From: Naegleria gruberi
Taxonomy: Eukaryota
NCBI GenBank assembly: GCA_000004985.1
Contig: GG738878.1
Reading direction: 5' to 3' (one strand)
Length of the DNA: 64,000 nucleotides
Below the pieces are notes generated by a model. The model was not told the DNA's origin. It searched no databases and saw nothing but the letters and a program-made list of their open reading frames with translations. Of this stretch, positions 9,668 to 53,114 are shown in pieces. How positions within the stretch are numbered: position 1 is the first letter of the stretch; each line of letters opens with the position of its first letter. The translations under genes and the position numbers were made by a program.

Positions 9668-12600
9668 TTACTTGGCTGATTGACTTTGTTTTTGAGAGCC
9701 TCCTTGTTGAGTGGAATTGGAAGATTCCTCTCTCAATCTAGCTCTATATTCTACATTTTCCAAAGTAATGGAACGAAGAATAGGGAAGAAGGAAACATCT
9801 TGCTCATGAACACAATTACTCACATATTGTTCAGAACCTGTATATTCTGTCTTTGGTTTTCTATTCAAGTGAATGAGGAAGAAGAGATAGTTCCACATGT
9901 TGTGTTCCTTTCTGACGTGATTGTTAAAAGTAATACCTTCGTTGGCCTTTTGGTCAAATCTAGCCCTCTCAATATCGCAAATGAAACACTTATTCTTGAG
10001 ACGATCTTCAGTCTTTTCACGATTTTCTCTCAACTCGGCAAATGATTCCAAAATAATACCGAAAACTACTTCAAACAATACGACAATAACAACCAAGATG
10101 AAGAGCATGTTGATAATTTCTCTTGTCCAGATTCCCCAACTTGGTGTGAACTGATCTTCGAAGAAACCACCTGTTCTCAAACCATAATTCAACGTATTTA
10201 GCATACAGTCAGCTGCTGAATCACATAAGAATTGCTTATCAGAGTTATCACTCTTGAGATAGAATGTTTCTGGTACAAAGGCGAATATCATGAGGGAGAA
10301 GAACCAAATTGCCACAATCATGAGCATGCTTGTTAAAACGAAACGTTCTGCTGTTGTTTGAATACTGAGCACAATATCATACAGTGTATCAAAACGAACT
10401 ACAACTTCAAACAAGTGAATGGCATAGACAATAGGATTAACTGTCAGACCCAATACTGAAACTACCCAATAGACCACAAGGAAGGAAACGTAAAAGTCTT
10501 TGGCTAGATATTTGAGGTAATTCTTATAGAATTGTCTATCTCTTGGTAAATCTTCCCACTTCTCTCCCATTTTCAACTTGAATTTCTTCTTAACTTCCAA
10601 AGTTGCAAAGAAGTATAAATAGGTACCAAAAAGCAAGGACGTAGTTACTAATTGAATGACACCGAGAACTGTCTGAACGTAATCTAGCCAATCTGTTTTC
10701 CAATCACCTTGATATTGGAAACTACCAGTAGTGGAATCATCTGGATCGGAATAACCAGGAAGTGGAATATCTCCAGGAGTGACGGCATACATTTTCTTAA
10801 AACCAAACAATACGAAACAGTTAATAATGAGAGAAAGTAAGAAACTCAAAAGCTTGATCTTACTCCAATTGTCCTCTCTCAAAAACCTCCACAAGAAGGA
10901 AACTATGAAATTACTACTTAAAACCTTTTGATTTCTATCAGATTCAAATTGTTTGTAGTGAACAATTTCTGTATAGAAGGTATCAGTTTGATCGAAAAAG
11001 TTACGAATCTTTTCTTGTGCTGTGTACTCCTCAGAGTTGACAGAGGTGAGGAAATTCTTACGGGATTTTTCTGAGAGGAAGCTACTTTCATTTGGAATTC
11101 GGTAGTAAACATTTTCTATAGTATTATTTCTAACAATTTCCATTCTTCCTGTTTCTTTTTCAACTGGTACCAGGTATCTGGAATATTCTGGAACTTCCAA
11201 CAAGTGTGAAATTTTCTTGTTACTATTTTCAGAGAATGTACTCTTTGAGCTACTTTGGCTGTCATTAACAAATATATTCTCACCATCAGATAGGGTATTC
11301 AATAGGAAGTAAATTTGGAAAGCAATCTCTTCGTATTGTTCGGTAGCCTCACAAATTCTCTTTTGCTTTTCTTTGGTGAGCTGTTTATCTCTAAAGCTGT
11401 CTCTGAATCCATCTTGGGTAACTTCAGCCTGTATTCTTGAAGTCATTTCTTCCTTTGCACCAATATTCAGGTCAATCTTGGGCAAGCCTTTACCTCTACT
11501 TTCATCAATGAATTGGGTTGGTGTGAAAGAAATAACGCAACACTTCTTTAAAAATTCCATAATGTCTGGGAAATTCAAACTGTCTCTCATGATCATTGCA
11601 ATCTTGTGATTGTTGCTTCCTTCCAACAAAGAAGTCAAACAAATAAACATGGCTCCCTTCAATTCCAAGCACTTGTCCAACTTGAAAACACCCTTATAGT
11701 CCTTTGACATAATTTCATTACAAACAAAGTAGAATTTTGGAGACATGCCAATAACTTGTTGAGTGGTTAGGCAGGGGCCTTGTACAAATTCAGTGAGTGA
11801 ATCAAAACATTGGATAGCTGTTTCAATATTATCAGCTGTAATGTCTTTTTCTAGAGCTACAATAAAATTCAGGCACTCTTCAACAATATTGAAACTTTGA
11901 GTATTGTACTTTTGTTCTGCCAAATAGTGCTGCAAGTCATTGTTGTGACCTTCTGTCATCAATTGGAGGAAACGTAGAATTTCTTCAATATGTCCCTTTT
12001 CTTCAAACTCTTCTTGGAATGTTTCTTCATTTTCTTTTTCATTATCATCTGTTTGATTACTACTAGATGATTGAGCAGTTGGGGTAGCAGGAACAGTTCC
12101 AGGATTGTCTCCTCTTCTCAACTTTTTGGCTCTGTACTGTTTGAAATCTTGCTTCTTTTCCTGTTGTCTCTTGTAGTAGGCTTTTCTTTCCTTAATTTCA
12201 TCAATAGATAATCTGATTCTGTCACGAATGGACAAGAAGAATCTTTCCGTGCTTCCCTTCTTGAAGAGGGAGTAAATATAGCCCTGAACAATATTGTTAC
12301 CTTCAAAGAGCATGGAAACACCAAGCTCAATGGAAGACTTCATAATTTTGTGATCTTCACTGCAAACCATTTCCAAAACCAGTTCTGGTATTTTGGCCTT
12401 TGCCAAGTCATGGTGGAACTTGTTTAATTTTCTTTGTCTCTGCTCAGCATTCAACTTTTCCAAAACAGATTCATCTTGTTGAGTATTCATAATTTGCTTT
12501 AACATTTCAATGGAATAGAGGGCTAAATTACTAATACTGCCTGCCTTTCCAATAATTTCTCCGTCTTTACTTGAAGGAGCTAATTCTGATATTCTTCTAA

Positions 12601-15600
12601 TAACATTTACAATCATATCAAGATAGCCTCTATATTGTTCATAGAGCAGAATACCCAAATTGGCAAAGTTAGATTCTTGGGTTAGGATTGTAGTAAATCC
12701 ACTCACATAGACCTTGTATTGTTTCATGTACTTTTCGTCTTCATCCTCTTTCTTTTGAGCAAGAACTAATTGCTTGTTTTGTTGTTTTTGCATGTGTTGC
12801 TTGAATTGAGTTGCTTTGGTGGAAGAAGCTTCCTTCAAGAATTTGAATATTTCTTGAGTAAATTCTTGTGGCATTGATTTGGATTGATTTCCACTCTTGC
12901 TAACTTTACACATGGCTTGCAAGCATTTTATAACAGCCTCCTTGTGTGCAGCTTCTGCAACTGTTTGATAGAGATTGAACAGATTTTCAATAACAGCCTT
13001 GATTACTTCTAATTGTTGAGGTTCTCCAGTAAAATCGTTAGGAGGGAACTTCAAGTGGAAGTAATGGTGAATGAATGGAATCATAAGTTGGAAGATGTAC
13101 TTGATTTCTACATAAAGCTTTTCCTCTGGATCGTGTCCCATTAATGAATCATCCCCTTGACCCTCCAATGGCTTCTTCAATCTCAATACGAAAGAAGTTT
13201 TGGCCAACTCTAATGGGTTAGAATCTTGAGAACTGGTATTTCTTGGATGCACACCAACCCCTATTGGAGTGGCTACAGATCTGGCATCAAGTGGATCAGT
13301 TAGAATAATTTCGGTACTTCTTCTATTGTTGGAATTACCACCACTATTAACAAACATATCGAGCTCTCTTGCCATCTTGGCCAATAAACGGAATATTGGA
13401 GAGCTACTAGACATTTGCTTTTCATCTTGAACCTTATCTGCGTTGATGTAAACTTCATCCAAAAAACGGAGGAGTGGATTTCTCAACTCTGGGATTGTAT
13501 TAGGACTCAGCAATTGTTTCAAAATATCTTCAATAGATAATAAGGATTGAAGTTTAACTTCAGCAACATGATTTCTTCCATCACCACACTCTGCCAACAA
13601 ACTTAAAAGCTCAATATGGTAACAAAGGATACCATCAGGTTGTGTTTCGTGTTCCTTATTCTTGATTCTTCTATCTCTTTCCTTGATTCCTTCTTCATCG
13701 TTAAAAAGAACAATAACATCCTTCTTACGATCCAGTAAATTTTGAGTGACCAGTGTTTGGTTTCTCTTGATTGGATTTCCATCAGTACCCATGAGAATAA
13801 TCTTCAAAAAGTTGAGATAGCGAGCCTTTAAACCATGTTCTGCAATAAGATCGATAAGGTATCTAATGTGTCTTTCTTCCAACATACTACACAAGCCTCT
13901 GTTATTTCTAACAACTTCACAGATGAGTGTTGACATGCCCAAATCTTGACCAATCTTTGACATGAAGAATTCAAGATAAGGGAAGAGGATAGTTTGGTTT
14001 TCTGCATTCTTTCTCACAAAATCTGAAAGGAAGCGAACACATGCCTTGTGAATTCTTTGTTGGGATCTATTATCATCGAATGACATGGTAAGAGTTTCAA
14101 TAGCCAATTCGTGAGCACTCAAGTTTCTTAGGATTCTCTGGGTTCTTGAGCCATTCTTTTCATAATCGTCTTCAACTCGTTTGAAACTTTGTTGAATACT
14201 CTTTGAGTATTGCTCCAATGATGTTCCTGATGAAGAGTTAGCAGCATTGATAAAATTTTTAAGATCTTTCAAAATTTCGAGAATGTTATCATAACTTTTC
14301 ATGACGGCACTGGAAACTAATAATTCGATTCGTGGCAACAAGTCTTTAAGCTCTTCCTTCTCTCTATGAATACGAATCAATAAGTTAAGTGCCTTTACGG
14401 CCAATGAAGCATTTTTACACTTGGTCAAATCAATAAGAATTTTTGTAAGGTTTTGAACGGATGCAGATTCGTTAAATATGGAATCTTTGAAAAGTGAATT
14501 TTTAACAAAATCTTGACGCTTGTCTTCTGATTTGTCACTAACAGTGAAACTGTACTTGAAATTAATCAAGAAAAAGTCCACTCTAACGTTCAGTTGTTGA
14601 GATTTGATAATATCGAAAATTTCACAAACTTCTTGCTTGATTCTTGTAGTAATCATAGTTTGCTCATTCTCCTCATAAATTGCATCAAGTGCTGGTTTTC
14701 CATTAAGCTTGTCATTTGTACAATCCAAAAGCTTTAGCAATTCAACGACAACTCTGTGGGTTGGATAAATATTTGACAAATCAAACATGCCCAATTCAAA
14801 CATCTTTTTGGTCATGAAAACAAGGTTATAAATGAATAAATTCTTTTGAACACTTGTAATATCATTACCACAATCTAATTGATAGTTTTCCTTGTAAAAG
14901 TCTGTCAAGAAGGTACGAAGCTCTTTGATCTTTTTGTCGTCTTGAGTCTTTTTCATCTTTTCAATTTCTGTCCACTTTCTTGTGAAGGAAATTGTTGGAT
15001 TGGCTTCATAAGGATCAACATCCAAGAAACAATTCAAAAGAAGTGTACAAAAGCTGGATCTAATTTCAAATGGTAAATTCTTCTCCTTGATGCATGCCAA
15101 AATAAGCTCATAGCTGAACTTATTCTGAATGTATTGGATAGCTTCCTTATTTCTTCCTAAACACAAGAGAGACAAGAGTTCAATTTGTTTTTGGAAAAAG
15201 TTGAGCAAAATTAAAAAATCATCCTGTCCATCAAAGTTTGCAGTATTCGCAGAAAGTGCCTGAGACATTGCCTTTGACACAAATTCCAACAAACCATATT
15301 CAGTTCCATTAACCTTGATGCAAAGTTTGTTCTTTGGATCATTATCTACAAAGTAAGGGAACATGAGAGAGTTTGTAACCTTTTCGTCTTCGAAAAGCAA
15401 CTCGGTAATGTAGCTTTGGTTCTTCTTGATTGGTCTATTACCACAAGCACACAATGCACTAAGGAAGGAAAGATAGATTGAATTTTTAGCACTCAAATAC
15501 TCAGTGGCTGTTTCTTCTGATGATTCTTCTTTCTTTGGTGTCATTTTCTTTGCTGGAGAAGAGGAAAAACCTCTTGGGGTAACCATAAGTTTCCGTGGAG

Positions 15601-18600
15601 ATGTTAAATTTTCATCAAATCCGCCACTTTCCTCATCTACCAACAATCTTACAAAGTATCTTATTTGCTCTTTTGGCATTCTGTTCAATAGTCCATAGTT
15701 ATTTGTTAAAATTTCAATTAGGGCAACACTGGCTCCAACATCCATTTTGATATGTTGCTGAATTTCGGTAATATATTTTGACATGTACAATCCATTGTCA
15801 CTGTTCAATTTGACAGATTGTTTGATCACTCTGTACAAGTTACGGAGCAAGTAGTGATAAGATGCCAGATCTGACTCTGTCCATGTATTTTCATCTCCCA
15901 ATTTAGCAGGACTTTCTCCAAAAACTGAAAGTGAAACAATATCTGGAACATTATCAACTAACTCTTCTATAAGTCTCATTACTAAATCAATTACACCTCT
16001 TTCTCTGAGAATATTTTGTCTGCTCTTGAATGGAATACCTTCTCTCTTGAGTGGATCCTCTTCATCAGAGTCAGTCAAAAAACAAACCAATTGTGCAAGG
16101 GCAGGCAAGAGTGTTTGAAGTAACACTTTGAAATCGTCTGGTCTCTTGATAGATCTGGATTGAACTCTCCTCATAAAACTTTCAATTAATGGATAAATAC
16201 TTTGAACAAGAAGTAAGTCTTCGAGCTCCTGTTGAGGAACCTTGTAAACGGAGAATACATCCTGTTCATATAATACATTGGTAGCATAGAGTCTGAATTT
16301 CTTACGAGAGGACTTCTTTTCTGGTTTAATCATTCCAGCATTGGCAGCATTGTTTTGAGTGAGAGCTTGTTTTCTAAGATTGAGAGTTGGTTTGTTGGTG
16401 GTTGTACTACTTGGAGTTGATGGAGTTGTTTCATTCTTTCCCTTGAGTGGCGTATCATCTGCCTTCATAAGACTTGAACCAATACCAGAATCACTACTCA
16501 CACCATGAACCCAAGTCTGACTGTGGGCATGTTTCAAACGGAAATAGCTTTGCAAAGGTATTGGAGCAGTATTATGATGATTATCATGTCTCGATTGTAC
16601 ATCATGTTGACAAATAATGAAAGTGGTATCATCACTTCCCAATCCATCTTTTACAGCCAATTCAAGAGAGACACCAATTTGCTCCTTCTTTACAGCAGCC
16701 AATAGCTTTCGCTTCAACAATTTCCAATATTGATCTGTTGCTGAATTACCTGGAGATGATGTTGTTGATGAAAGTGAAATACTACTCTCATTGAATACTG
16801 AAATATTGACTTGGGATGCACTGGCAACAGATGATCTATCAAAGTCTTCAGTGTTGGCTGTAGTTCTTCTGGAAAGTTTAGAGAAGAAGGAATTTGTAAT
16901 TCCAAATTCATCATCTGAATCACTGGAGAAATCATCAAAAATATCTTCATTCTCCTCTACAAAATGACTATCCTTTGAGGCATACAGATATTTTCCACTG
17001 GAAACATGTTTAAATCTATACTTCTTATTCCACATCAAGGCACCACCTCTAGTAGGGTCAACCATTTCTACTTCCCACAAACTATCTGTGAATGCGTACA
17101 TTTTATCATTCTTTGATTGGCTCGTATCGTCATCTGTTGACTTTTTGTTGGATTTGATTGGGAGAAGAGCCTTATCGGCTGTTGAGGAAGAGGTCTTGTT
17201 GGCACTGCCAACACATTCTACTCTACCAGTTTTAGAGTTGACCGATAAAAAACTATTCAATTCTGTATGGAAAAGCCTAATAACATCACCAGCCTTTAAC
17301 ATGTTACCTGAATGAATACTTAAATAGGGAGAAAATAGACGAATTCTCCAATTGGTATATGAAAAAGATGAGGTAAATGTTGTACCTGGTATCATGTTGA
17401 TTTCTCTTCTGTCATCTTCATCAAGGGAAACCTGAGTTGATGTTGAGATGAGTTGATTATTCGAGGACAAAACCGTTGAGTAAGTAAATTGACCCAAATG
17501 AAGGAAGGTGTTACTCTTCCTGTTAAAAAATCTGACTTGATCACTCAATTTTACAGCATCACCCTCCGATCTGAATTTGTAATAAGGTAATACAATAACA
17601 TGAGATGTCGAATCTATAGCTTCTTCTGAAACAAGTGTTAGCTTGAGACAATCTTTTTGCTTTTCTGCTTTTTCTCTTGGATTTACACACAAGTATTTCT
17701 TAGTTTTCAAATGCATGAGTTGGATTGGTTGACCATATAATATTTCTTTACCAATATTTCTTTCATATTCAATATTGTTTTGTTGTTTTTCTCTTTCCAT
17801 TTTTCTTTCCAATTCTTCAATTTGAGCTCTTTGTTCCTCAGTCAAATCTAGAAAATGATATTGATGAGATTTGATGAAAGTTTTTACAGAAGGAGCTTGA
17901 ACATATTGTGTTCGAGTGGCTGCACTTGTGGAAACAGCTCCTTCTTCGTTATTTACGGCTAATTGTCCACTACTGGTATTCATGTCATTGGTGCTTTTTG
18001 ATGTTAAAATTCCACTCATGTTTGCACTTGATGATATTGTCATGGCAATAGAGCTGTTGGCAAGATTGACCGTGGTAGTAGAAGCATTGGCAGCATTTGT
18101 TGTGCTAACGGCAGCTGTTGCAGTTTTTGTAACTTTGGCCGACTGATTCATGGTCCTCAATTTTACATTTAATTGTTCCAATTTTTTGTAGAATTCTTTG
18201 TGGGCATTATAGGAAAATGCTTGTTGAACAACAAATACACATGACTTGAAATTGGATGGCAGATTCTCATCGGAAATACTTTCTAATCCACATCTAGCAT
18301 TAGCAGTAAATCTATTATTTTACATGATCACAACATAAAACAATTAAATACAATGTTCAAAAACTCTGAGAGATGAATATTTAAAACCTACCCTTTCACA
18401 CTCATGAATCCAATTTCCTCACCATTTTCATCAGTTGCCTGTTCATCATCATTTTGATAATAGACCGAAATTAAATCACCCACACAAAGCGACCTCTGAT
18501 TGAGTTGAGGTTGTTGCAACAGAAGGCTCTGAGAGGGAAGCGCTGATGATGTTCCGTTGTTTTTATTTGTTGTGTTTCCTGCCGAAACTGAGAAGAGAGA

Positions 18601-18639: not shown

Positions 18640-18961
18640 CCCGAGATGAGAAAGATGATGCTATGGGTTGTTATGAGGTTGTTGTGAGTTTACGTTGTTT
18701 TCTGAAACTTGTCCAAGTGGCAGTGATGAATTTTTTTTTTAAATCTGTTCTTGACGTTTGACTGTGGATGGCTTTATGATTAGACAATCCTTCTGGTTAG
18801 TTGAAACTTGTTATCATTTTGTTAGTATTGAATTTTAAAATAAAGAAATTAAAGATTTGGTTATTTGAATGCGATAATTCATGTTAAAGAATAAATTGAT
18901 TAACATAGTGTTATCAAAGGTTTGATTATTTGGATTTATTTGACTGCTGTCTCCAAAAACT

Positions 18962-18970
18962 GGCGCCAAA
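18962..18970 (-). promoter_or_regulatory. E2F-type site TTTGGCGCC (plus strand aaaaacTGGCGCCAAAAtc) in the divergent promoter between the IP3R-like gene and the Mps1 kinase gene
   Basis: Match to the TTTSSCGC consensus, about 150 nt upstream of the Mps1-like ATG. Confidence 0.4.
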
Positions 18971-19114
18971 ATCTTCCGTTAAATCAATAAATTCACTCAA
19001 AAAAAACAACAAAAAACACAAACAGGTAGGCGCTGCCTGCAATCGCTACAATTTCATCAAGAATATTCACAACAATTTAAACAAACAACAATATAGTACT
19101 AAGAGGCGAGCAAT

Positions 19115-21424
19115 ATGAACCTATCCAACAAATTATATGTTGGAAAGGAAAATCTAACACCCAGCCATATGAATATTCTTTCTCCCCAAACAATTCCCTC
19201 ATCAAGAACATCAGCAACACAACAACCATTTAGCAAATCGATATCATCATCTAGTCTCTCGAAACCAACTATTGGAACTTATTCGAGAAGCAAGGCACTC
19301 ATTCAAATTCCAAGTTTTGAAGAATTAAAAAGCAATCAACAACCATTCCATACATTGTCCGAACTCTTCTCCAAGCTTGATACATTTCCAAATCTGCACA
19401 ATGATCAGAAAATTGAATTTATCAAATTATGTATTACTTGTATTGATAAGAGTTTTCTTAAAGTTCACGAGAGGGATATCTACATGTTTTGGATAATATT
19501 GGCCATTCAATTTGTTGGTAATAAGGATATTCCTAACTGGGATGAGGAAGTTAGAAAACGACTCGCCGAACATTTTGAATTCTTATCAAACTATAATCAT
19601 CCTGTTAAAGATGAGGAAAATTTCTACATTTTGAACGCCTTATTCGAGTGGAAAACCAATGAACAACCTGACAAAATATTCAGAAGTATTTCTAAGGTAC
19701 AACAGGGTATTAACCGATTGGGTGAAACTCCAATTTTGGCTGAAATCAAAGGTTCTCTTTTACAGAAATCAATATTTCCACAAGTTGAAATTTCTTACAA
19801 ACCAACCACAATGATTCCATCTTTTCAAAATTTACAAGTACCATCTAGCACACCAACAACTAAATCTACCTCTCCTCAAGATGTTAGTAATTCAGGTGCA
19901 GGATTATTTACTGGAAATAGAAGAAGAAGATCAAATTCAAATAATGACTTCCAACTCATACAACAAAATTCAACAAGGCAGTCAAGTCGTTCCAATCTCT
20001 TTGCCGGTAGTAAGCAATCATCGATCAATATTAATGCTGAAATGCCAAGCATTTCCTCTAGTCCATTTATTTCCTCTACTTCCCTTTCTTCCAACTCGGT
20101 TAGTGCAACACCAACTACTGCACTTTCCATCAAAACTACTAGTGTGCCCCCAACACAAAGCACACCTCAACCACTCCCAACACTCACTTTTCCAACTCCT
20201 ACTTCCATTAACACAGAGAATGTAAATAAGAGACCTAGAGAAGAAGTTGTCTCTACACCATCTGCAACTCCAAATACCAGTACTGCACCAAACAGTACTT
20301 CAACATCTGCTGTCTCTGAGGATGGCAGTGCCAAAAGGTCTAAGCCTACAGTATTTGTACCAATTAACAATAGAGAATACCAAGTATTAAAAAGGATTGG
20401 ATCAGGTGGAAGTTGCACTGTTTACAAGTGTGTTGATACCAATACCAAAGAAGAGGTTGCTATAAAACATATCAAGATTGACAGGACTAAAAACGATAAA
20501 ACTGTCCTTGATGGGTTTCTAGCTGAAGCTACTCTTTTAGAACAATTAAGAGCTGATGATATTGGAGAGAATATTATTAAATTAATTGATTACGAATATA
20601 GACCTCATAACAAGAGGGATGAAATCCTTCTTGTTATGGAGCTAGGTACCACTGATTTTAATAATATTATCAAGAAGAAGAGTGCCAACCAATCATTTAC
20701 TACAGATGAATTGAGAGTTTACTGGAGACAAATGCTTGAAGCAGTTTCCTTTATCCATTCGAAAAAGATTGTCCACACAGACATTAAGCCTGCCAACTTT
20801 TTACTTGTCAATGGTAAATTGAAACTTATCGACTTTGGTATTGCTAAAGTTCCAGATCATGAACAAACTCTAAGCATTTGTAGAAATTCTATTGTTGGTA
20901 CTCTTAACTTTATGCCACCTGAGAGTTTTATTAATCACAATGCCAATGATCCAAAATATAAGTTTGGTCCTCCTGGAGATATTTGGAGTCTTGGAATTAT
21001 CTTTTATCAGACAATTTACCAAAAGACACCATTCTCTGATTTTGAAGATCACCTCACCAAGATTGCACAAATTACAGATAGGAATAAGGAACCATATTTC
21101 CCACCATGTGAAGAGCAATACCAAGAGGCAGTTGACTTGCTGAAAACCATCTTGGTTAAAGATCCAAGTCAAAGACCTTCTATCCGAACAATTTTAGAAC
21201 ATCCATTTTTTGCTCAACCTTTACAACTTTCTATTAATACCAACGAAGAACAAGAAGCATTTTGTAAGAATGTGTTGAAAACTTTTGAATTCTTACTTGA
21301 AAACCTTCCATCTCAATCCGTTCCTCCCCAAAAAGCAGCTTTTAGATTATTAAAGCTTTGTCACGATAATAAGAATGGCGAAGAAATGTCAGAAGATGAC
21401 ATTACTAATTGCCTTTCACAATAA
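19115..21424 (+). CDS. Mps1/TTK-family dual-specificity protein kinase (769 aa); S/T/N-rich N-terminus, C-terminal kinase domain
   Basis: ATG start. Kinase motifs present: [12 protein letters not shown]...[32 protein letters not shown] (cf. TTK [26 protein letters not shown]), TLNFMPPE. Confidence 0.8.
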   Translation: [769 protein letters not shown]

Positions 21425-21533
21425 ATCTTATTAATTTATTACTACTAGGAAATTTATTCACCAATCCCATCACAAAATCAACTTTATTCCCGCCCATTTA
21501 TCTTGTTTTAAATATTTAAAAAAATTAAAAAAA

Positions 21534-41485: not shown

Positions 41486-42191
41486 GATTATCAGATTGTT
41501 GTTGAAGAAGAATTAAAACAATTAAAGACTTTGAAAATCGATCCTCTGTATGATGATGTTATTGAACAATTAATGACTGTTATTCATGAATCCGTTTTAA
41601 TGTATCCACTTCAAATTATTAAATAATCGTATGATCAACGAGTTGTTAATATCAGTGCAAAAGCTAACACTCAATGGAAAGAAGATTTTTTTCAAGTCTG
41701 CTTTCATTTATTATTATTTGATGATGGTTGTCGGTTACGATATGAAGAAAAAAGACTTGATTGCATGACTAACTTTTATGACTGGTTGAAGGTGTTTCTT
41801 GTCTTGTTTATTGATAATTTGGAATTGATACCAAACCATTCGTTCTAAAACAATGAAGTCATTATAGAGGTATTGCTTCGATGTTGTATGAACCTTCCTT
41901 GTTGATGTTTCCTTTTCTGTCACATAAGAGCAGGTGCCTAGAGGAGGAGAATATAAAATCTGTATTACAAATATAAATTATATTCGTTGGTTAGTTTGTT
42001 GGAGGGGCCAATATCATGATGATCATGAAAGTCATTGCATTTACATTGACAATACTCATGTTTTGCATTCTATCATCATCAACTTATTCCGTTCCTCTTC
42101 TTTCCTCAACTTTGGGCATCATGATGAAGAAGTGTTGCTGCGTTGTGTAAGGCCCTTACGTGTTCATTCAACAGTTTGTTTGCTCCAAATT

Positions 42192-42199
42192 TTTGGCGC
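42192..42199 (+). promoter_or_regulatory. E2F-type site TTTGGCGC in the divergent promoter upstream of the BET bromodomain gene
   Basis: aaatTTTTGGCGCtatttt, about 300 nt upstream of the ATG at 42496. Confidence 0.35.
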
Positions 42200-42495
42200 T
42201 ATTTTATTGATTGGACGTTGAAAAACAAAAGAAAAAAAAACATAAACGCTAGGCCAGCTCTGAGCGCTTTAACAACATACTCTTGTTGCAAAGCACTTTT
42301 TTAACCACACACATCAGCTTTCCATCAACGGTTTTTTTGCGTTGCGTTCAAATTGTAAGACCACGTTTTTTAACAAGGCTTCGAACTCTGAAATTGCCAG
42401 CAAAACTTCTGTTTTTTAACGGAACGCGCGTAAATTCAATCTCACAAACAACCGCTATTCAATCTACAGCTTAGCAATTTACACCAACAGCAACA

Positions 42496-44696
42496 ATGTC
42501 CATCGAACAAGAAAAACCAACCTCATCATCCACAACATCAACTACATCAACAACAGATGAGAAGGACACCAATATGATGATGATCACGAGTACTACTAAC
42601 AGTGATGGTGGAGCAGCCTCTACAATAGCTTCTAATACTCCAGTCAAGGCTGAGTCATCATCAGCTGCTCCACAAACAAAGAAGAAGGCTTTGATTGAAA
42701 AGCTTAGAAAGACAGTAAGCAATACTGAAAATATTGTTGCTGCTGCTTCTACACCAACTTCATCCAAGAAAGCCCCTTCCACAACCATCTTTACTCCAAC
42801 TGTGGAACCACCTTCTCTCTCTATTAATACCAACACTGCTACTACTGGTGTAGCTGCAACAACAATTGGTGCCTCTTCTTCCACATCCAACAACACCACT
42901 CCTACCCAAAATTCTACAACCAATACTACTCATCCAAACACTACATCAACTACAGAACCAATCACTCCAACAAGATCCAAGAGAACTCGTAGACCAAACA
43001 AACTGTTAAATGATGAAGAAATTCCAAGCCTTCCAGAAAGTATACAGAAAAAGCTCCAAAAGCTAATGGGTATTGTTAAGAAACACAAATGGTCTTGGCC
43101 ATTCAATAATCCTGTTGATCCTGTACAATTGCAAATTCCTGATTACTTTGATGTAATTAAAAATCCAATGGATTTGGGAACTGTTGAAAAGAAGGTTAAC
43201 AATAATGAATATATGGATGTCTACCAATTCTTGGACGATGTTAGAGTTATTTGGTCGAACTGCTACTTGTACAACCCTGTTGATAGTGACATTTACAAGA
43301 TGGCCAAGGAAGTGGAAAAGTATTTCAATGAAAAGTATGTCAAAACTGTTGGTGAAGTTAGTTATGATACAACAACAACTGTTCAAGAAGAGGTTACATC
43401 ACCATCAGCCCAATCCAGTACCATTACAACCCCAGCAAGCACACCATCAACAAGTAAGAATAAGAAATCGAACGGAACAACATCATCAACTAAAGGAAGA
43501 AAGAAAAAGACATCCGAAACTGAAACCAATCTAGACTTAATGATTGAGACACCAATTAAGGAACAAGTAACAACACCATCAACCACCTCAAAATCTAAAG
43601 CATCATCAACCAAAAAAACTACAACAAACAAGAAAACAAAACCTAAGACAATGTCCTATAATCAAAAGAAGGAACTCAGTACAAATATTGGTTCTTTGGA
43701 AGGTGACAAATTAGCTGAAGTGGTTCGAATTATTCAAAGTAAAGCACCATCAGCTTCCAGCAAATCTGAAACTGAAATTGAAATTGATTTAGATAAATTG
43801 GATGATGCTACATTATTTGAATTAGAAGCATTCGTGGAAAAGAATCTTCCTAAAGAGAAGAATAAGAAAAAAACATCTTCAAAGCCTGCACCAAAGAAGA
43901 AGAGAAAGACTTCCCCTGTAAAGGAAAAGAAATCAAACAAGAAACCAAAAAAGGAAGAAAAAGTTAGTGACTCGGAATCTACTGCTACAGATAATAGTGG
44001 ATCAGAATCAAGTGCCACAGAATCAGACTCTTCCGACTCTGACTCTTCAAGTGGATCTGATTCTGATGATGATACTATCATGAAGACCATGACAAATCCT
44101 GTGCCACCAACTGTTCAAGAGATTCCAAAATCAATTCCTGAAGGTAAGTTTAATCTTTATTTTTCACGTTCATAAGGTATAGTTTAGTAGCTCAAAAACC
44201 ATTACTTCCTAACATTCAAACAACCAACATTAATACTCCAAACTCTGTGAATAATAACACTATTAATACCCCAACCAATTTATTACCACCAACTCCTACT
44301 TCTTCTAGACCTCCTGCCAATATTATCCCAACAAAGAAACAAGTTGATACAGTAAAAGTTGATGAATTAAGCTGGACAAGTTTATTGGACGATGATGATA
44401 AGAAGAAACAACAATCTTCAACAAGTTCTGGATCTAGTATGGACACATCTGATGATCATACCAGTTCAAAATGGACCATTTTCCAACAGCAACAAAAGAG
44501 ACAAAACGAATTGGAGGAAAAGATGAAACTTATCAGAGAACAAAAAGAAGAAGAACGTAGACAACAATCCATGCATGCCTCTCACATACATATGAATGAA
44601 AGAGAATTGGCAAAGAGACAACGAGAAGAGGAGAGACAACACAAGATGCACGAAGATTTGGATCCAGAGGCCTTTGAAAAGGAGTATTTTAATTAA
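42496..44696 (+). CDS. BET-family bromodomain protein (bromodomain plus ET/NET domain), exons 42496..44143 and 44188..44696; intron 44144..44187 (44 nt, GTAAGT...TTTAG)
   Basis: Bromodomain: WPFNNPVDPVQLQIPDYFDVIKNPMDLGTVEKKVNNNEYMDVYQFLDDVRVIWSNCYLYNPVDSDIYKMA. ET domain: YNQKKELSTNIGSLEGDKLAEVVRIIQ...EIEIDLDKLDDATLFELEAFV. K/S-rich linkers. The second exon is the ORF-track call 44247-44696 (GTG start), joined in phase 1. Confidence 0.8.
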
Positions 44697-46447: not shown

Positions 46448-48097
46448 TTATTTAAGAAGCTTTTGAGTTTCGAAAAAGTTACCATGGAAACCAAAAGGTA
46501 CTCTTCTTGGTAGCTCAATATTCACTAATGGTGTGTTATTCATTGTCTTTCCATCGAATACAAACACTGTGGAAGAATTGGAATGTTCATGGTAGGCATA
46601 ACATACAATGTAGACATCATCCTCTTCTTCAGATCTTGGTATGATTGAAACTTCTCCAATCATTCCATTGTTTGGAATGGTAATTGTTTGGAATGCATTT
46701 CCTTTTTCCAAATCAACTTTGGCAATTGAATTGGCAACGAATAGTTCTGATTTTTCAACTACTAAACTGTAGTAGAAAAATCTATTCTTTTGACCAGTGA
46801 TTTCTCCTCTTACGACAGGGAACTCTCCAGAGGGTAATTGATTTCCGTCGAGGGTTTTTAAGAAACCTTCTGAAATTAACTTGCCACTTGTTAAGTTCAG
46901 AGTGTATTCATATGGGAATGGTTGCCCTTTTGAAAAATCAGTCATTGAGAATGATTTTTGAACGTGAACCAATATCTTAATCAATAAATCATCACCCTCT
47001 CTTTCTTCATAAGCATTAATATAGTGAAAGGCAACACCAGTTTCAGCTTCAAAGAATTGTATCTTGCTCGACTTGCCATCGTACAATCTTGGGAAGACAG
47101 CAATCTTGGTTGGTTTGGTATCATCGAATACGATTGGATTTTCACCAGTTAGAACCTTCTTGACATCCAAAATCAATGGATAAAATCCAACAATTGAATA
47201 ATTTTCAGTAATGACCATATCATGAATCATGCAAACGTATGGAGTTTCTTCCTTGGTGAACTCATGTGAATGAATAATATCAAGATTCTTATCAGTGACA
47301 CCATATCTGAAAGAGGTTCCTCTAGGATTCAATTCATATCCAAAGAAAATCATCTCTCCATTTCTTGGATCAATTTTTGGATGAGCAGTGAAATTATGTT
47401 TCAATTTTCCTTTAAAATCAAACTCTCCAACTGTTTTCAAATCTGGGAATGTAACTTCCATTGGTTTGTGTCCTTCTTCGAGTGCCAGGAATTTACCACC
47501 ATGATAAATGATATTAGTATTTGCAGCACCACCTCCCTTCTTAAGTGGTCCATTCAATCCTCTATACATTCTCTCGTACAAGTAATGATAGGTATATTTG
47601 AGAAGTGGATTAATGCCACCATCCATGATCATACTATGAGCGAGAGGTCTTCCATTCTCCTTCTCTTGCAAGTACTTTTCAGTTTGGACGAATCTATTTC
47701 GATACGAACAATTTCCATCCTTGAATTCAAGTGCATGAATATGACCATCACCTTCAAACCAATGCAAATTATAGAGTGGATTAAATTGTGGATTTGGTCC
47801 AATTCTTGCATAAATTCCATTCAAATCCTTTGGAATTTCACCACTAATAATCGGAAGCTTTGTGATGGTCAATTCATCATGAATCGGAGCAAAATTACCA
47901 TTCATTATTGGATTGTTTTTAATACCGCTCTCATAGGCTTGATTCTTATAATTGGAGAAGAGGAAATACTTGAAAACTCCCTTGATCCACAATAGGACGC
48001 CATTTAAAACTGTCCAGCAGAGGATTAACAAGTATCGTAGTTGATCAATTAGAGAATTTTTGGCGGGAGAAGTTGGTTGATCATTGGATGAAGCCAT
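46448..48097 (-). CDS. carotenoid cleavage oxygenase (RPE65/CCD family) with N-terminal membrane anchor (549 aa)
   Basis: ATG in A-rich context. Family landmarks: GNFAPIHDE, HWFEGDGHIHALEF, FTAHPKIDPRNGE, MIHDMVITENYSIV, FHYINAYEE, FGFHGNFF (all four iron-ligand His contexts). A hydrophobic helix LILCWTVLNGVLLWIKGVF sits near the N-terminus. Confidence 0.85.
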   Translation of the reverse strand: MASSNDQPTSPAKNSLIDQLRYLLILCWTVLNGVLLWIKGVFKYFLFSNYKNQAYESGIKNNPIMNGNFAPIHDELTITKLPIISGEIPKDLNGIYARIGPNPQFNPLYNLHWFEGDGHIHALEFKDGNCSYRNRFVQTEKYLQEKENGRPLAHSMIMDGGINPLLKYTYHYLYERMYRGLNGPLKKGGGAANTNIIYHGGKFLALEEGHKPMEVTFPDLKTVGEFDFKGKLKHNFTAHPKIDPRNGEMIFFGYELNPRGTSFRYGVTDKNLDIIHSHEFTKEETPYVCMIHDMVITENYSIVGFYPLILDVKKVLTGENPIVFDDTKPTKIAVFPRLYDGKSSKIQFFEAETGVAFHYINAYEEREGDDLLIKILVHVQKSFSMTDFSKGQPFPYEYTLNLTSGKLISEGFLKTLDGNQLPSGEFPVVRGEITGQKNRFFYYSLVVEKSELFVANSIAKVDLEKGNAFQTITIPNNGMIGEVSIIPRSEEEDDVYIVCYAYHEHSNSSTVFVFDGKTMNNTPLVNIELPRRVPFGFHGNFFETQKLLK

Positions 48098-49382: not shown

Positions 49383-51544
49383 ATGCCCTTCGCATGGCTC
49401 AAACGAGGTAGCGGCCAAGAGGAAATAGATTTGGAAGATGTTCCTCTGAATCAGTGGTCTTCCAAACAGTTGACCAAATTTCTCAAGCAACACAAAAAGA
49501 AGATTGAATTGGAAAATAAGGATATTACCAGTATGTTTCAACAATAGCGAAATATCTAAATAGTAACAATTTTTTATTCACCATAATATTATAATGTCAT
49601 CATGATGATGAATTTTTATTATTATGTTCCGTGATGACGACAATGATGATGCTAACCACACCACGAACAACAATAACAAAAAAACGCGCCAATTCTATAT
49701 CTACTACTAACTACGATAATGATGATGATCAAACTCTAATTATTGCAAATTAACCGATTAATAATAATAACAATAACAAATATGATAATAATAACAATAC
49801 TATATGATAATAACAAAATAACAAAAAAGAATTGAGAGAAGAAAGATGGAATGGTTTATCCATGTTAAGTGCCAAAGTTGAAGATTTGGAAAAGTTGGGT
49901 CTTGCAAGTGGATCCGCGCATGCACTCTATACAACAATTCATGAAGTTATCAATAGTCAAGTACAACGAAATCTTCTCAACTTGAGTAATAATAGAATTT
50001 CCGTTAATATCAATACAGCATCATCGGATATATCAACAAGTGATTCTAATATTGGTTCATCATCATCAGCTGGTCATTCTCTAACGATAATTTCAAATGG
50101 AGGAGGTAGTGGAGAGGGAAAACATAGTTCTCTAGAATTTTCAAGTTCATCACCTGGAACATCAGTCAACCAACACCAACTCAATTATATTCAAACTATT
50201 ATTCAAAAACAACAGGGTAAATTGTCTGTACCAAACTTGAAAGATGAACAAATTGAAACATCTGGTGCAGTCACAACAAAAACTGGAGCAGATTTGGCTG
50301 CTATTCCTGCAGAAGATGATATTCGATTGGCACACGATTTGAATAATCCAGGAGAACTTGTTGAAGTTTCTCATGGTAGAAAGTCAGCAGGTGGTGGATT
50401 ACAAATTCTCACCCTTGCTTCATCTTCTACAAGTAATGCCAGTTCTCTTGAATCTGCTGTGAAGGATTGCCCTGCTTGGAAAGTTGATCAACTAACAGCT
50501 CAGCAAACTCAAGCTTTTGAAAATGCTGTTGAAAAGGTACAGAGCTTGAAGTATCCAATCAAACCTGAACTTATTGATGTTTTAGCTCAAGACTTGGTTA
50601 TTGTTGATAGATTCAAGTATAAATTCTTGAACCCAGACCGTTTAAAGCAAAGAGGAGATGGTGGTAGACATGATACTTTCCTCAAGATTAAACTTGTCAT
50701 TACCGAAATGGATACAGAAGTTTTCCACAGAATTTGCAGACGTTTTGCTAATACCTTCTCTACAACTGTTAGAAATAGTAGATGGGGTATGTTCCACACT
50801 GCCTTGATCATTGGTCCATGGTATTTGGAATGGAATGACAGTTCTCTTTCAACTGTTAGAAAGAAGAGTAGTAGTAAGGCAGTTTTTGCTGTTGATATTG
50901 CTAAAATTGAAGGACAAAGAGAAGTTAACGAAGTTATTGATTCTGTTGCTCAATTATGTACAGTATGGAACGGATACAAGCTTTATGAAAATGACTCATG
51001 TAACTGTCAACATTTTGTTATTGACATGTTAGAATATTTGGGATTGGGTGATTCTTTTGAAAATGTTTTGGAAAGATTCCCACCACTCAAGGAATACATT
51101 AACAAACTTAAGAAACGAGGTGTTTGCGATATGGCTTACTATGTAGATGATAGAATTGCTAAAGCCATCAAGGAATCTACACAAACAAGTAGAGCTTTGA
51201 AAGAACTTGTCAAGAATAAGAAGGTTACCTTTGCATCTCACAAACTTTTGGATGAATTTGTGAGTTTTATCATGCAAAACTTCCCACTCTTCATAACGAA
51301 TCGTCAACAAGAGTATGAACTTTTGAAAGCCTTTGATCGTGCTTTTTGGTTGAGAAGTCAATCTTCACAAACTGAAGATGATGAAACTGTGCAACCTATG
51401 GTTGATATGCACACTCAAGAATGCAAATGTCCTTTCAATAAGAATAATCAACCAATAACTGAAGTTAACAATTCTATTGTTGGTATTGACTATGATGTTG
51501 GTAATTATACAACTCATTTCCCTAAGCCTAGTGTTAACGCTTAA
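49383..51544 (+). CDS. SAM-domain plus LRAT/NlpC-P60-like (H-rev107-type) domain protein, exons 49383..49530 and 49830..51544; intron 49531..49829 (299 nt, GTATGT...AAAAAG, microsatellite-rich)
   Basis: The SAM fold is split by the intron (WSSKQLTKFLKQHKKKIELENKDIT|KLREERWNGLSMLSAKVEDLEKLGLASGSAHALYTTI). C-terminal region carries FHTALIIGPWYLEW and CNCQHFVIDMLEYLG, matching the LRAT-family His box and NCEHF Cys box. The ORF-track call 49832-51544 starts at TTG. Confidence 0.55.
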
Positions 51545-51608: not shown

Positions 51609-53114
51609 TTAATAGAAACAATCATATACATCTGAAAGGGCATTAACTTTAACATCTTTCCAATGTTGAACAAAATCCTCGATACACATGTAAAAGATAC
51701 CATCATCTCTGAATTCAACATTCAAACGCTTAATGAGGTATGGTGTCCAATCCGAAGAATTGTCTGAATATCTTCCCTTCCACTCTAACGATGCCATAGA
51801 GCTTTGAATTTGTTGTTTTGTCATGTCGCTGCCAGCAAATCCCCTATTGAATTGTAAATAAAGTTATCAAAATTAAGATGAACAAACTTACCAAGGATTC
51901 ATAATTTTAACAAGACGGTGAACCTTTTGCTCATCCTCAACCTTTACAACCTCCAGTACAGCATATGCATGGTATTCCTTGATTCCACTTGTTTTCTCAG
52001 TTTCTGCATAGTTCTGAGGAGAGTAAACAAAGATTGTGTTGCCTGCCTTGTTGAAGTCGACCAGTTTTTTCCAAATTTCTAACGGGTTACTTGTTGGTGT
52101 AACAACTAGGCCTGGTAAAGGTCTAGCTCCACAAAGAGTTGCTGTTGCAAAATCCGATTGACCTCCATGCCCAATAGCTTTGTATCCTCCATATAATTTG
52201 GCAAATGCTTTCTCCAAAAGTGGAACCCAAAATTCATTAACTGTTGATGACCTAGAACATAATAACTTTCCATTTCCTCCAAATGGGAGTCTATCGTCGA
52301 TAGTAACCAGTGTTTCCTTTCCATCCTTATAGAGACGTAAAACATGTTTTCCCTTCTTCATATCACTCTCCACAAAAATATTCTTAATAATTCTTGGGCA
52401 TTTGTAGGCCAAATTAATGACAGCTGCCAAAAAGTAGCACGTTCCAATAGAAGACTGCCTAATATCAAGAACATCAATGCCATCGAAAAACAATTGAGGA
52501 TCGTCAGCAATTTCGCACGGACGTAACCATGCAGAAATCTTTTCACTGAAATCCCAATCTTGTTTGAATTCAGTGTCGAAAAACATTGTGCTTGTATTTG
52601 CTCTCTTTTGTCTTTCAACCATTTCCTTACTTGGATTGAAAATTCCATGCAATGCACAGTAATAATCCTTCAAGAGTTTTAAATATTGGTACAATTTTCC
52701 ATATTTCTGGAAGCAATCAATAAGGGTTTTAACTGGAGTTTCATAACTTGGCGTCACTGGCAAATTTTTGCATTCCTGAATCAGTTGATCAACAGTCAAA
52801 TTCAAAAAGTCTGGTACATTTGGTGTATTCACCCATTCGGATCTGACTTTTAATTCCTTATCTAAAATATCGCAGTGACTTGGATACCAACCACTTAATC
52901 CACTCTGAAAATCCGAATCTGTCTTCTTTACATAATTCATATAAAAATCAACATGTGGTGGTTTTGCCAAACCAATACCATTATCCAAAGCCTTTTCCCA
53001 CTTTACTATTGTATCTAATGTTTTTGTAAATTGAGGAGAGACTCCATCTAATTTCCCATACTTTTCCTTAAACTCTTGTAGTGTTTTCTTAATACTATAT
53101 TCCGAGACAGACAT
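51609..53114 (-). CDS. calpain-like cysteine protease (peptidase C2), exons 53114..51892 and 51843..51609; intron 51891..51844 (48 nt, GTAAGT...CAATAG)
   Basis: Catalytic Cys in QSSIGTCYFLAAVINLA, His in EYHAYAVL, Asn in IMNPW|G. The junction is phase 2 and joins to GFAGSD...LEWKGRYSDNSSDW...DGIFYMCIEDF (domain IIb). The ORF-track call 51609-51824 is the second exon. Confidence 0.85.

What the first reader, a model, noticed from the sequence alone, without database searches (positions are those of the whole stretch)
18955..18972. E2F-type TTTGGCGC(C) palindromes in three divergent promoters, including the Mps1 mitotic-checkpoint kinase
The exact palindrome TTTTGGCGCCAAAA occurs at 53217-53230 and TGGCGCCAAAA at 18961-18971. 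The shorter TTTTTGGCGC occurs at 42191-42199. A weaker CGCGCC/TTCGCGC variant occurs at 49684-49690, inside the long SAM-gene intron. All lie in GC-poor intergenic DNA, where GC-rich 8-14-mers are unexpected. The 18961 site is about 150 nt upstream of an Mps1/TTK homologue, a classic E2F cell-cycle target. RblA/E2F-regulated cell-cycle genes with TTTSSCGC motifs are documented in Dictyostelium. The BET bromodomain gene (42496) and the calpain/transporter pair may then be co-regulated.
Basis: partly seen in the sequence, partly recalled or inferred. Interest (0 to 1): 0.5.

Follow-up and report, generated by a model that had tools for sequence, protein, structure and literature searches.

The report
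Candidate E2F sites in Naegleria promoters
Three gene-control regions of the amoeba Naegleria gruberi carry the exact DNA word (TTTGGCGCC) that the cell-division regulator E2F recognises in animals and plants, one of them just upstream of the mitotic checkpoint kinase Mps1, so this ancient switch probably works the same way in a very distant branch of life – expected rather than surprising, but not previously described.

Summary
They exceed chance once coding and non-coding DNA are judged separately. TTTGGCGC occurs 4 times at 3 loci, all in the 20% of the window outside long ORFs, against 0.06-0.35 expected. The window is Naegleria gruberi, not Dictyostelium. The downstream kinase is a true Mps1/TTK orthologue (NAEGRDRAFT_69434). 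N. gruberi encodes E2F, DP, an E2F7/8-like DEL and RB, and the E2F and DP DNA-recognition helices are almost identical to the human ones. In an independent test on contigs of a ~95%-identical strain, two of four cell-cycle gene promoters carry the same 9-mer. These are the E2F7/8-like gene (-48) and a Cdk1-type kinase (-256); none of about 15 neighbouring promoters does (P about 0.04). Cyclin B and CDK1 promoters lack it and instead carry a Myb/MSA-like CCGTTA element. Best reading: genuine E2F/DP sites (confidence about 0.65). Cell-cycle control of the bromodomain and calpain/transporter genes is untested. No binding, expression or cross-species conservation data could be obtained. This is a new member of a known kind and of moderate interest.

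The parts
18961..18971 (.). Site 1: TGGCGCCAAAA, which reads TTTGGCGCC on the minus strand at 18962-18970. It is a candidate E2F/DP site 145-154 bp upstream of the Mps1 ATG and about 810 bp from the IP3-receptor ATG (18151).
   Evidence: The intergenic status follows from exact matches of both flanking ORFs to annotated proteins.
18976..18981 (+). CCGTTA (TAACGG on the minus strand), a Myb/MSA-like core starting five bases after site 1 ends (four bases lie between).
   Evidence: The same pairing is seen in the BET promoter, L010 and L009. It is a post hoc observation.
19115..21424 (+). Mps1/TTK kinase gene (NAEGRDRAFT_69434, XP_002675359.1), 769 aa, single exon.
9668..18151 (-). IP3-receptor-like channel gene (NAEGRDRAFT_80324), the divergent neighbour of Mps1.
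42190..42199 (+). Site 2: TTTTTGGCGC, followed by T rather than C. It is a single E2F-type half site 300 bp upstream of the BET ATG.
42417..42434 (+). TAACGGAACGCGCGTAAA: a Myb-like TAACGG abutting a CGCGCG core. The reverse strand reads TTTACGCGC, one mismatch from the E2F consensus. It lies 70-80 bp upstream of the BET ATG.
42496..44175 (+). BET-family bromodomain gene (Bromodomain plus ET domain).
53218..53231 (.). Site 3: perfect palindrome TTTTGGCGCCAAAA, i.e. two overlapping E2F half sites. It lies 105 bp from the calpain ATG (53114, minus strand) and about 280 bp from the transporter ATG (53501).
53334..53341 (+). CTTCGCGC, an E2F-like site with one mismatch, 160 bp upstream of the transporter ATG.
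51888..53114 (-). First exon/ORF of a calpain-family protease gene.
53501..55177 (+). Amino-acid transporter (Aa_trans) gene.
49685..49693 (-). ATTGGCGCG, one mismatch from the consensus, 177 bp upstream of ORF 49862-51544.
21486..21494 (+). ATTCCCGCC, an E2F7/8- or plant-type variant with one mismatch, 40-48 bp upstream of the ATG of the TPR gene (21534).
48059..48067 (+). TTTGGCGGG, an E2F-like variant. It lies inside the first codons of the RPE65-like gene on the minus strand and 250 bp upstream of gene 48317-48877.

Best explanation
The TTTGGCGCC elements are binding sites for the Naegleria gruberi E2F-DP heterodimer, and possibly also for the E2F7/8-like DEL protein.

Proposed mechanism:
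- E2F (NAEGRDRAFT_54558) and DP (NAEGRDRAFT_50903) each place a winged-helix recognition helix (RRIYD / RRRVYD) on one half of the GGCGCC core.
- The T-run orients the dimer. The full palindrome at 53218 can be bound in either orientation, which suits a bidirectional promoter.
- The RB orthologue docks on the C-terminal SGEGVSDLF-type motif of E2F and represses the promoter outside the proliferative window.
- CDK phosphorylation of RB releases the repression.

Site 1 would thus tie transcription of the spindle-checkpoint kinase Mps1 to the division cycle.

Shown here: the motif, its excess, its restriction to promoter DNA, the presence and conservation of the trans-factors, and recurrence upstream of two other cell-cycle regulators.

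Inferred: actual binding, RB-dependent repression, periodic expression, and any role at the BET and calpain/transporter promoters.
For: 1. Match to the consensus. The sites match the E2F consensus exactly, and five of six strand-specific hits extend to TTTGGCGCC.

2. Excess and position. There is a strong excess in non-coding DNA only. All hits lie 48-300 bp upstream of start codons, and none lies in 51 kb of ORFs.

3. Not a repeat. The flanks of the sites are unrelated to each other.

4. Trans-factors.
- N. gruberi E2F, DP, DEL and RB sequences are given in the supplement of Medina et al. 2016 (PMC4862756). They were confirmed as N. gruberi RefSeq proteins.
- The E2F DNA-binding domain hits human E2F4 (1cf7_A) at 2.6e-25. 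The stretch [24 protein letters not shown] is identical.
- DP hits DP2 (1cf7_B) at 1.4e-28, and the stretch KNIRRRVYDALNVLMA is identical.

5. Independent test. Contigs of an environmental strain are about 95% identical to the window in intergenic DNA.
- The E2F7/8-like DEL gene has TTTGGCGCC at -48 and CTTCCCGCC at -163 (L007).
- The Cdk1-type CDKAc gene has TTTTGGCGCCATTTT at -256 and ATTCGCGC at -121 (L010).
- These are the only TTTSSCGC hits in 32 kb of such contigs.
- Two of 4 target promoters are hit against 0 of about 15 neighbours (my rough count of called genes, not a script tally): Fisher P 0.035. A uniform non-coding null gives 0.043.

6. Precedent. mps1 is RblA-repressed in Dictyostelium (PMC3386910). 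That E2F7/8 and DEL genes are E2F targets in animals and plants rests on established knowledge, not on a test here.
Against: - Two of the three window loci sit next to genes with no obvious cell-cycle role (calpain and an amino-acid transporter) or only a loose one (BET).
- The independent test is small, with P about 0.04. The target genes were those for which sequence happened to be obtainable.
- Cyclin A-b has only a one-mismatch site, 603 bp upstream. Cyclin B2b has none.
- CDKAa (cdc2) has none in N. fowleri or N. lovaniensis.
- No orthologous Mps1, DEL or CDKAc promoter from another Naegleria species could be retrieved, so there is no evidence of conservation.
- No expression or binding data could be reached; the supplements of the mitotic RNA-seq papers are not held.
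- Transcription start sites are unknown.
- GCGC- and CGCG-containing words are enriched in non-coding DNA generally (13 and 8 occurrences against 2 and 1 in coding DNA). More than one GC-core factor may therefore be at work.
Confidence: 0.65

Rival explanations
1. The element is a functional promoter site, but it is read by a different, possibly lineage-specific, factor that recognises a GGCGCC or GCGC core. Its resemblance to the E2F consensus would then be coincidental.
For: - GCGC and CGCG words of several kinds are concentrated in non-coding DNA: 15 loci in 12.9 kb against 3 loci in 51 kb of ORFs.
- These include forms that do not fit E2F orientation, such as GAGCGCTTTAA at 42264, CCGCGTTTAC at 37130 and ACGCGTTTCG at 48962.
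- Half of the motif-bearing genes in the window have no cell-cycle link.
Against: - Of the 32 possible TTT+S5 octamers, only the E2F consensus word stands out.
- The E2F and DP recognition helices are almost unchanged from human, so the protein that should bind exactly this word is present.
- The word recurs upstream of DEL and CDKAc.
Confidence: 0.17
2. The sites are bound mainly by the atypical two-domain E2F7/8-like repressor DEL (NAEGRDRAFT_71591) rather than by E2F-DP. This would give RB-independent repression, including auto-repression of DEL itself.
For: - DEL has two E2F-type DNA-binding domains (EKRRIYD and TRTRRLND). A tandem pair of domains would be expected to suit a two-half-site palindrome (my expectation, not tested here).
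- Its own promoter carries TTTGGCGCC and CTTCCCGCC.
- TTCCCGCC-type variants occur at 21486 and at L007:3610.
Against: - Nothing here distinguishes DEL from E2F-DP.
- From general knowledge, both classes share targets in animals and plants, so this is a refinement rather than an alternative.
- The second DNA-binding domain of DEL has RRLND instead of RRxYD.
Confidence: 0.1
3. The occurrences are chance matches without function.
For: - Whole-window shuffles give only marginal significance for TTTSSCGC (8 of 100 shuffles reach the observed count).
- The finding was selected post hoc from a 64-kb read.
- The independent test has P of only about 0.04.
Against: - The compartment-specific expectation is 0.06-0.35 against 4 observed.
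- Every GGCGCC in the window lies inside a site.
- One site is a 14-nt perfect palindrome.
- The only two further TTTSSCGC hits in 32 kb of independent contigs fall within 260 bp upstream of cell-cycle regulators.
Confidence: 0.08

Closest known systems
E2F/DP-RB cis-elements of animals and plants (TTTSSCGC; for example the overlapping inverted sites of the DHFR promoter and the tandem TTTGGCGC sites of the p107/RBL1 promoter)
   Same: - The core word is identical, and palindromic double half sites occur.
- The sites lie within a few hundred bp of the start codon.
- The element is present upstream of a mitotic checkpoint kinase, an atypical E2F gene and a Cdk1-type kinase.
- The organism has E2F, DP, DEL and RB with near-identical DNA-recognition helices.
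   Different: - The organism is a heterolobosean (Discoba), where no E2F site has been described in the library searched.
- Binding, RB dependence and periodic expression are not shown.
- Only the GG variant (TTTGGCGC) is seen as an exact match. TTTCGCGC and TTTCCCGC occur only as one-mismatch forms.
Dictyostelium RblA/E2F regulon (Strasser et al. 2012, PMC3386910)
   Same: It is a protist in which the Rb orthologue represses S-phase and mitotic genes, including mps1, cdk1 and DP. This gives precedent for Mps1 as an Rb/E2F-axis target outside animals and plants.
   Different: - It is a different supergroup (Amoebozoa).
- The evidence there is expression in an rblA mutant, not motif analysis.
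Plant MSA elements / animal DREAM (E2F-DP-RB-like + MuvB + Myb) promoters
   Same: - A Myb-type core (TAACGG) lies within 15 bp of the GC core in the Mps1, BET and CDKAc promoters, and flanks it within about 25 bp on either side in the CDKAa-like promoter (L009).
- GCCGTTACACA lies about 160-180 bp upstream of cyclin B2b and of CDK1 in three Naegleria species. It matches the plant MSA consensus as I recall it, YCYAACGGYYA, at 10 of 11 positions.
   Different: - TAACGG is not enriched in non-coding DNA overall (3 occurrences against 8 in coding DNA).
- The pairing was noticed post hoc.
- The presence of Myb3R or MuvB proteins in Naegleria was not tested, and no paper in the library links them.

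Membership tests
E2F/DP binding site | The sequence matches the family consensus TTTSSCGC (GCGSSAAA on the other strand). | tested here: met
   There are exact matches at 18963-18970 (minus strand), 42192-42199 and 53219-53226/53223-53230. Five of six pooled hits extend to TTTGGCGCC. The consensus is quoted in PMC4862756.
E2F/DP binding site | The organism encodes E2F and DP with the conserved RRxYD recognition helices. | tested here: met
   NgruE2F, NgruDP and NgruDEL sequences come from the supplement of PMC4862756 and were confirmed as N. gruberi RefSeq entries. The E2F domain hits 1cf7_A at 2.6e-25 and the DP domain hits 1cf7_B at 1.4e-28, with recognition helices nearly identical.
E2F/DP binding site | A pocket-protein (RB) partner is available for repression. 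| tested here: met
   NgruRB equals XP_002673514.1, named 'retinoblastoma protein [Naegleria gruberi]'. The E2F C-terminus ends in SGEGVSDLFL, which resembles the RB-binding motif; this is a reading of the sequence, and the interaction was not tested.
E2F/DP binding site | Promoter-proximal position, close to the transcription start. | tested here: inconclusive
   All sites lie 48-300 bp upstream of start codons in intergenic DNA, and none lies in ORFs. Transcription start sites are unknown.
E2F/DP binding site | Enrichment upstream of cell-cycle and replication genes relative to other genes. | tested here: inconclusive
   Two of four independently sampled cell-cycle promoters (DEL, CDKAc) carry the exact word, against 0 of about 15 neighbours. 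P is about 0.035-0.043. The sample is tiny, and no replication genes could be sampled.
E2F/DP binding site | Conservation of the site in orthologous promoters of related species. | not testable with these tools
   No N. fowleri or N. lovaniensis orthologues of Mps1, DEL or CDKAc were returned. The only cross-species loci obtained (CDKAa; L004-L006) have no site. The ERZ929261 strain is too close, at about 95% identity, to be informative.
E2F/DP binding site | Physical occupancy by E2F/DP and cell-cycle-dependent expression of the target. | not testable with these tools
   RNA-seq of synchronised mitosis exists (10.1101/2024.01.08.573270 and 10.64898/2026.08.18.745565). The per-gene tables are not held. 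No paper in the library names NAEGRDRAFT_69434.
Mps1/TTK kinase (the proposed target gene) | The kinase domain is closest to TTK/Mps1 rather than to other kinase families. | tested here: met
   PDB TTK chains score 1e-57 against 3.6e-26 for the next family. Database hits named TTK/MPS1 appear at 1e-33 to 1e-49.
Myb3R / MSA element (considered for the adjacent CCGTTA) | Match to YCYAACGGYYA and enrichment in G2/M promoters. | tested here: inconclusive
   The 18976 element matches only the TAACGG core. GCCGTTACACA upstream of cyclin B2b and of CDK1 in three species matches at 10 of 11 positions. TAACGG is not enriched in non-coding DNA overall.

The most novel reading that the evidence does not exclude
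Naegleria cell-cycle promoters may use a two-part code. An E2F word (TTTGGCGCC) would be combined with, or replaced by, a Myb/MSA-like word (TAACGG, or GCCGTTACACA in cyclin B and CDK1 promoters). This would be a DREAM-like E2F-RB plus Myb system of the kind known from animals and plants. [quoted passage not shown]
Probability: 0.3. Interest if true: 0.6.

Novelty: new member of a known kind. Interest (0 to 1): 0.4.

Why it matters
No transcription-factor binding site in Naegleria turned up in the paper library searched, although the organism is a model for de novo centriole assembly, for mitosis with dedicated tubulins, and for a lethal human pathogen (N. fowleri).

A validated E2F word would give the first handle on its cell-cycle transcription. 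It could be tested at once against the published RNA-seq time course of synchronised mitosis.

It would also extend direct cis-element evidence for the E2F-RB switch to Discoba. Presence of the proteins there was already known from comparative genomics. That would strengthen the view that the switch, and not only its proteins, dates from the last common ancestor of eukaryotes. It would not overturn anything.

Tried and rejected
1. Phylogenetic footprinting.
- Two homologue searches with Mps1, full length and kinase domain, returned no N. fowleri or N. lovaniensis orthologue.
- They found only one environmental relative, whose contig has 68 bp of upstream DNA.

2. Chimeric homologue search.

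3. Access to the N. gruberi genome.
- The genome is not in the contig index: P0001 is 'not on record'.
- The window could therefore not be extended, nor N. gruberi loci fetched directly.
- Work-around that succeeded: exact look-up of published N. gruberi sequences, then fetching the contigs of their 90% cluster mates.

4. JGI metagenome scan. A scan with RB+E2F+DP gave only distant DP homologues of other eukaryotes.

5. Expression data.
- No supplements are held for the two Naegleria RNA-seq papers, and two other papers are not held at all.
- No paper cites the gene's identifiers.

6. Repeat or mobile-element origin. Rejected, because the flanks of the sites are unrelated.

7. Non-coding RNA or tRNA in the intergenic regions. 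None was found.

8. NFI-type reading of TTGGC/GCCAA half sites. Rejected from general knowledge: NFI sites have a 5-nt spacer and the family is metazoan.

9. 'SAM-gene intron' for the 49685 site. Not supported.

10. One supplement look-up was wasted on a part of the file that held no Naegleria sequences.

Full report
**1. What is in the sequence**

- TGGCGCCAAAA is at 18961-18971.
- TTTTTGGCGC is at 42190-42199.
- A one-mismatch form is at 49685-49693: AAACGCGCCAAT, which reads ATTGGCGCG on the minus strand.

Further E2F-like one-mismatch or variant forms exist.

- ATTCCCGCC at 21486.
- TTTGGCGGG at 48059.
- CTTCGCGC at 53334.
- TTTACGCGC, reading the reverse strand at 42425-42434.

**2. Is it more than chance?**

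Whole-window shuffles make the short consensus look marginal. TTTSSCGC gives 4 hits against 1.36 expected, and 8 of 100 shuffles reach 4. TGGCGCCA gives 2 against 0.10, reached by 1 of 100 shuffles.

The window is 80% long ORFs, and every hit lies in the other 12.9 kb, which is 30.9% GC. Simulating that compartment alone with order-1, -2 and -3 Markov chains gives 0.06, 0.15 and 0.35 expected TTTGGCGC against 4 observed. No simulation out of 400 reached the observed count under any order.

Several further counts point the same way.

- GGCGCC occurs only twice in 64 kb, both times inside a site.
- GCGC occurs 13 times in non-coding DNA and twice in coding DNA, where an order-1 model expects 11.6.
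- CGCG occurs 8 times against 1.
- In 96 kb of pooled N. gruberi-type DNA, TTTGGCGC has 6 hits and each of the other 31 TTT+S5 octamers has 0-2.
- The flanks of the sites are unrelated, so this is not a dispersed repeat.
- No Rfam family or tRNA lies in the window.

**3. Where we are**

The window is Naegleria gruberi, not a dictyostelid.

- The 769-aa ORF at 19115-21424 is 100% identical to XP_002675359.1 / NAEGRDRAFT_69434, on a 395-kb scaffold.
- That protein is a real Mps1/TTK. Human TTK structures score 1e-57 and the next kinase family 3.6e-26. Kinase-domain relatives are named TTK/MPS1.
- The minus-strand neighbour is an IP3-receptor-like channel. Its annotated start is exactly the ATG at 18151.
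- So 18152-19114 is a 963-bp divergent intergenic region. Site 1 lies 145-154 bp from the Mps1 ATG and about 810 bp from the channel gene.
- Site 2 lies 300 bp upstream of a BET bromodomain gene.
- Site 3 lies between a calpain gene (105 bp away) and an amino-acid transporter gene (about 280 bp away).

The upstream ORF 48317-48877 is a complete annotated protein. The downstream ORF has no Pfam match.

**4. Is the trans-factor there?**

The sequence files published with Medina et al. 2016 (PMC4862756) contain N. gruberi E2F, DP, an E2F7/8-type DEL, RB, five cyclins and three Cdk1-type kinases.

I confirmed by exact look-up that these are N. gruberi RefSeq proteins. E2F is NAEGRDRAFT_54558, DP is 50903, DEL is 71591, and RB is XP_002673514.1, named 'retinoblastoma protein'.

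Against solved structures:

- The E2F DNA-binding domain matches human E2F4 in the E2F4-DP2-DNA complex (1cf7_A) at 2.6e-25. The stretch [24 protein letters not shown] is identical.
- DP matches DP2 (1cf7_B) at 1.4e-28. The stretch KNIRRRVYDALNVLMA is identical.

Since the recognition helices are unchanged, the expected specificity is the canonical TTTSSCGC. This is inference from the structure family, not a test. The E2F C-terminus (SGEGVSDLFL) resembles the RB-binding motif.

**5. An independent test**

The N. gruberi assembly itself could not be fetched. Proteins that share a 90% cluster with published N. gruberi sequences could be located, however.

An ENA metagenome (ERZ929261) contains a strain whose intergenic DNA is about 95% identical to the window. 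Its contigs therefore stand in for N. gruberi's own promoters.

Results for cell-cycle genes:

| Gene | Locus | Result |
|---|---|---|
| DEL | L007 (annotated ATG at 3773) | TTTGGCGCC at -48 and CTTCCCGCC at -163 |
| CDKAc | L010 (ATG at 1231) | TTTTGGCGCCATTTTTT at -256 and ATTCGCGC at -121 |
| Cyclin A-b | L011 | only GTTCGCGCC, at -603 |
| Cyclin B2b | L012 | none |
| Cyclin B1 | L008 | only 100 bp of upstream DNA, none |

The two exact hits are the only TTTSSCGC matches in 32.4 kb of these contigs. Two of four target promoters are hit against none of about 15 neighbouring promoters. The neighbour count (and the 3 of 47 below) is my rough tally of called genes with upstream DNA, not a script output. 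This gives Fisher P = 0.035. With the window's genes added as background (3 of 47) it gives 0.043. Placing two loci at random in the non-coding DNA of those contigs puts both in the 300-bp target windows with P = 0.043.

Other loci:

- A CDKAa-like gene from another metagenome has AAAAATGGCGCTGTTTT at -81 (L009).
- CDKAa of N. fowleri and N. lovaniensis has no E2F-like word within 450 bp (L004-L006).

The test is small and modest in significance, but it was made after the hypothesis and it went the right way.

**6. Mechanism proposed**

- E2F-DP binds the GGCGCC core, with the T-run orienting the dimer. The palindrome at 53218 can be read either way.
- RB docks on E2F and represses.
- CDK activity relieves the repression.

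At 18961 this would couple Mps1 transcription to the division cycle. Such coupling is documented by expression in Dictyostelium, where mps1 is among the RblA-repressed genes (PMC3386910). From general knowledge it also holds for human TTK.

The presence of the word in the promoter of the atypical E2F gene itself fits the negative-feedback wiring known in animals and plants (general knowledge).

Nothing here shows binding, RB dependence or periodic expression. Nothing shows that the BET, calpain or transporter genes are cell-cycle regulated. For those two loci the site may serve another purpose or be bound without consequence.

**7. Rivals**

- A different GC-core factor is possible, because GCGC and CGCG words of several shapes are concentrated in promoters. 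The specific excess of the E2F word and the unchanged E2F/DP helices argue against it.
- DEL rather than E2F-DP as the main reader is a refinement that cannot be resolved here.
- Pure chance is unlikely given sections 2 and 5.

**8. Seen in passing: a Myb-like partner**

CCGTTA (TAACGG) lies within 15 bp of the GC core in three promoters.

- Mps1 (18976).
- BET (42417).
- CDKAc (L010:963).

In the CDKAa-like promoter (L009) two copies flank the core within about 25 bp on either side.

An 11-mer, GCCGTTACACA, lies 160-180 bp upstream of cyclin B2b in the N. gruberi-like strain and of CDK1 in N. fowleri and N. lovaniensis. It matches the plant M-phase (MSA) consensus as I recall it, YCYAACGGYYA, at 10 of 11 positions.

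TAACGG is not enriched in non-coding DNA overall, and the pairing was noticed post hoc. If it holds, it suggests a DREAM-like division of labour between E2F and Myb words.

**9. Novelty and verdict**

The presence of E2F, DP and RB in Excavata was already reported (PMC4862756). I found no paper in the library describing an E2F site or any promoter motif in Naegleria.

This is a new member of a known kind. It is an expected but undescribed instance of the canonical E2F element in a deep-branching eukaryote, directly testable against existing RNA-seq data.

- Confidence that these are true E2F-family sites: about 0.65.
- Interest: 0.4.

Noticed in passing
window 18976-18981, 42417-42422; L010:963; L009:258, 323, 375; L012:4258-4268; L004/L005:9819-9829; L006:9831-9841: A Myb/MSA-like CCGTTA (TAACGG) lies within 15 bp of the E2F-like GC core in the Mps1, BET and CDKAc promoters, and within about 25 bp on either side of it in the CDKAa-like promoter (L009). 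The 11-mer GCCGTTACACA lies about 160-180 bp upstream of cyclin B2b (N. gruberi-like strain) and of CDK1 in N. fowleri and N. lovaniensis. It is a candidate G2/M element.
   Followed up: partly
whole window: GCGC and CGCG are strongly avoided in ORFs: 2 and 1 observed against 11.6 and 5.3 expected under an order-1 model. They are concentrated in intergenic DNA (13 and 8). Promoters with more than one GC-core word include Mps1 (18963, 19030), BET (42196, 42264, 42425), calpain/transporter (53223, 53337) and gene 37313 (37130, 37190). The cause of the coding-region avoidance is unexplained.
   Followed up: partly
L002, L003, L007, L008, L010, L011, L012 (ENA ERZ929261, PRJEB11402): A public metagenome assembly contains a Naegleria strain whose proteins are at least 90% identical to N. 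gruberi NEG-M. Its intergenic DNA is about 95% identical over the aligned stretch (the tool reports 88% mean column identity, which counts end gaps), and gene order is the same. Between the two, CCGCGC at window 37190 is CCAAGC in the strain, while the CGCG at 37130 is kept.
   Followed up: partly
window 28949-29851, 33041-33856 and neighbours: There are several NmrA-like / NAD(P)-binding paralogues. The 300-aa product of 28949-29851 (NAEGRDRAFT_69438) shares a 90% cluster with two other proteins of the same scaffold (69440, 69423). This indicates recent local duplication.
   Followed up: no
window 51888-53114 and 58472-60177: Two calpain-family genes lie within 7 kb on the minus strand. The second is split over two ORFs (58472-59437 and 59458-60177), presumably by a short intron or a frame change.
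   Followed up: no
window 53476-53478: An ATG 25 bp upstream of, and out of frame with, the transporter ORF's first ATG (53501). It is either an upstream start codon in the leader or a sign of an unrecognised short intron. The 558-aa ORF product is not identical to any annotated protein.
   Followed up: no
window ~42016-42156: A 46-codon ORF (MMIMKVIAFTLTILMFCILSSSTYS...KKCCCVV), read by eye from the sequence with approximate coordinates, has a signal-peptide-like start. It sits in the divergent region between the longin-like gene and the BET gene, just upstream of site 2. It is not known whether it is expressed.
   Followed up: no
L004 9802 vs L005 9707-equivalent: Two N. fowleri assemblies differ at a CGCG word 200 bp upstream of CDK1: TCGCGAAT against TCGCAAAT. 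One of them also has a retroelement (RVT/RNase H) inserted a few kb upstream.
   Followed up: no
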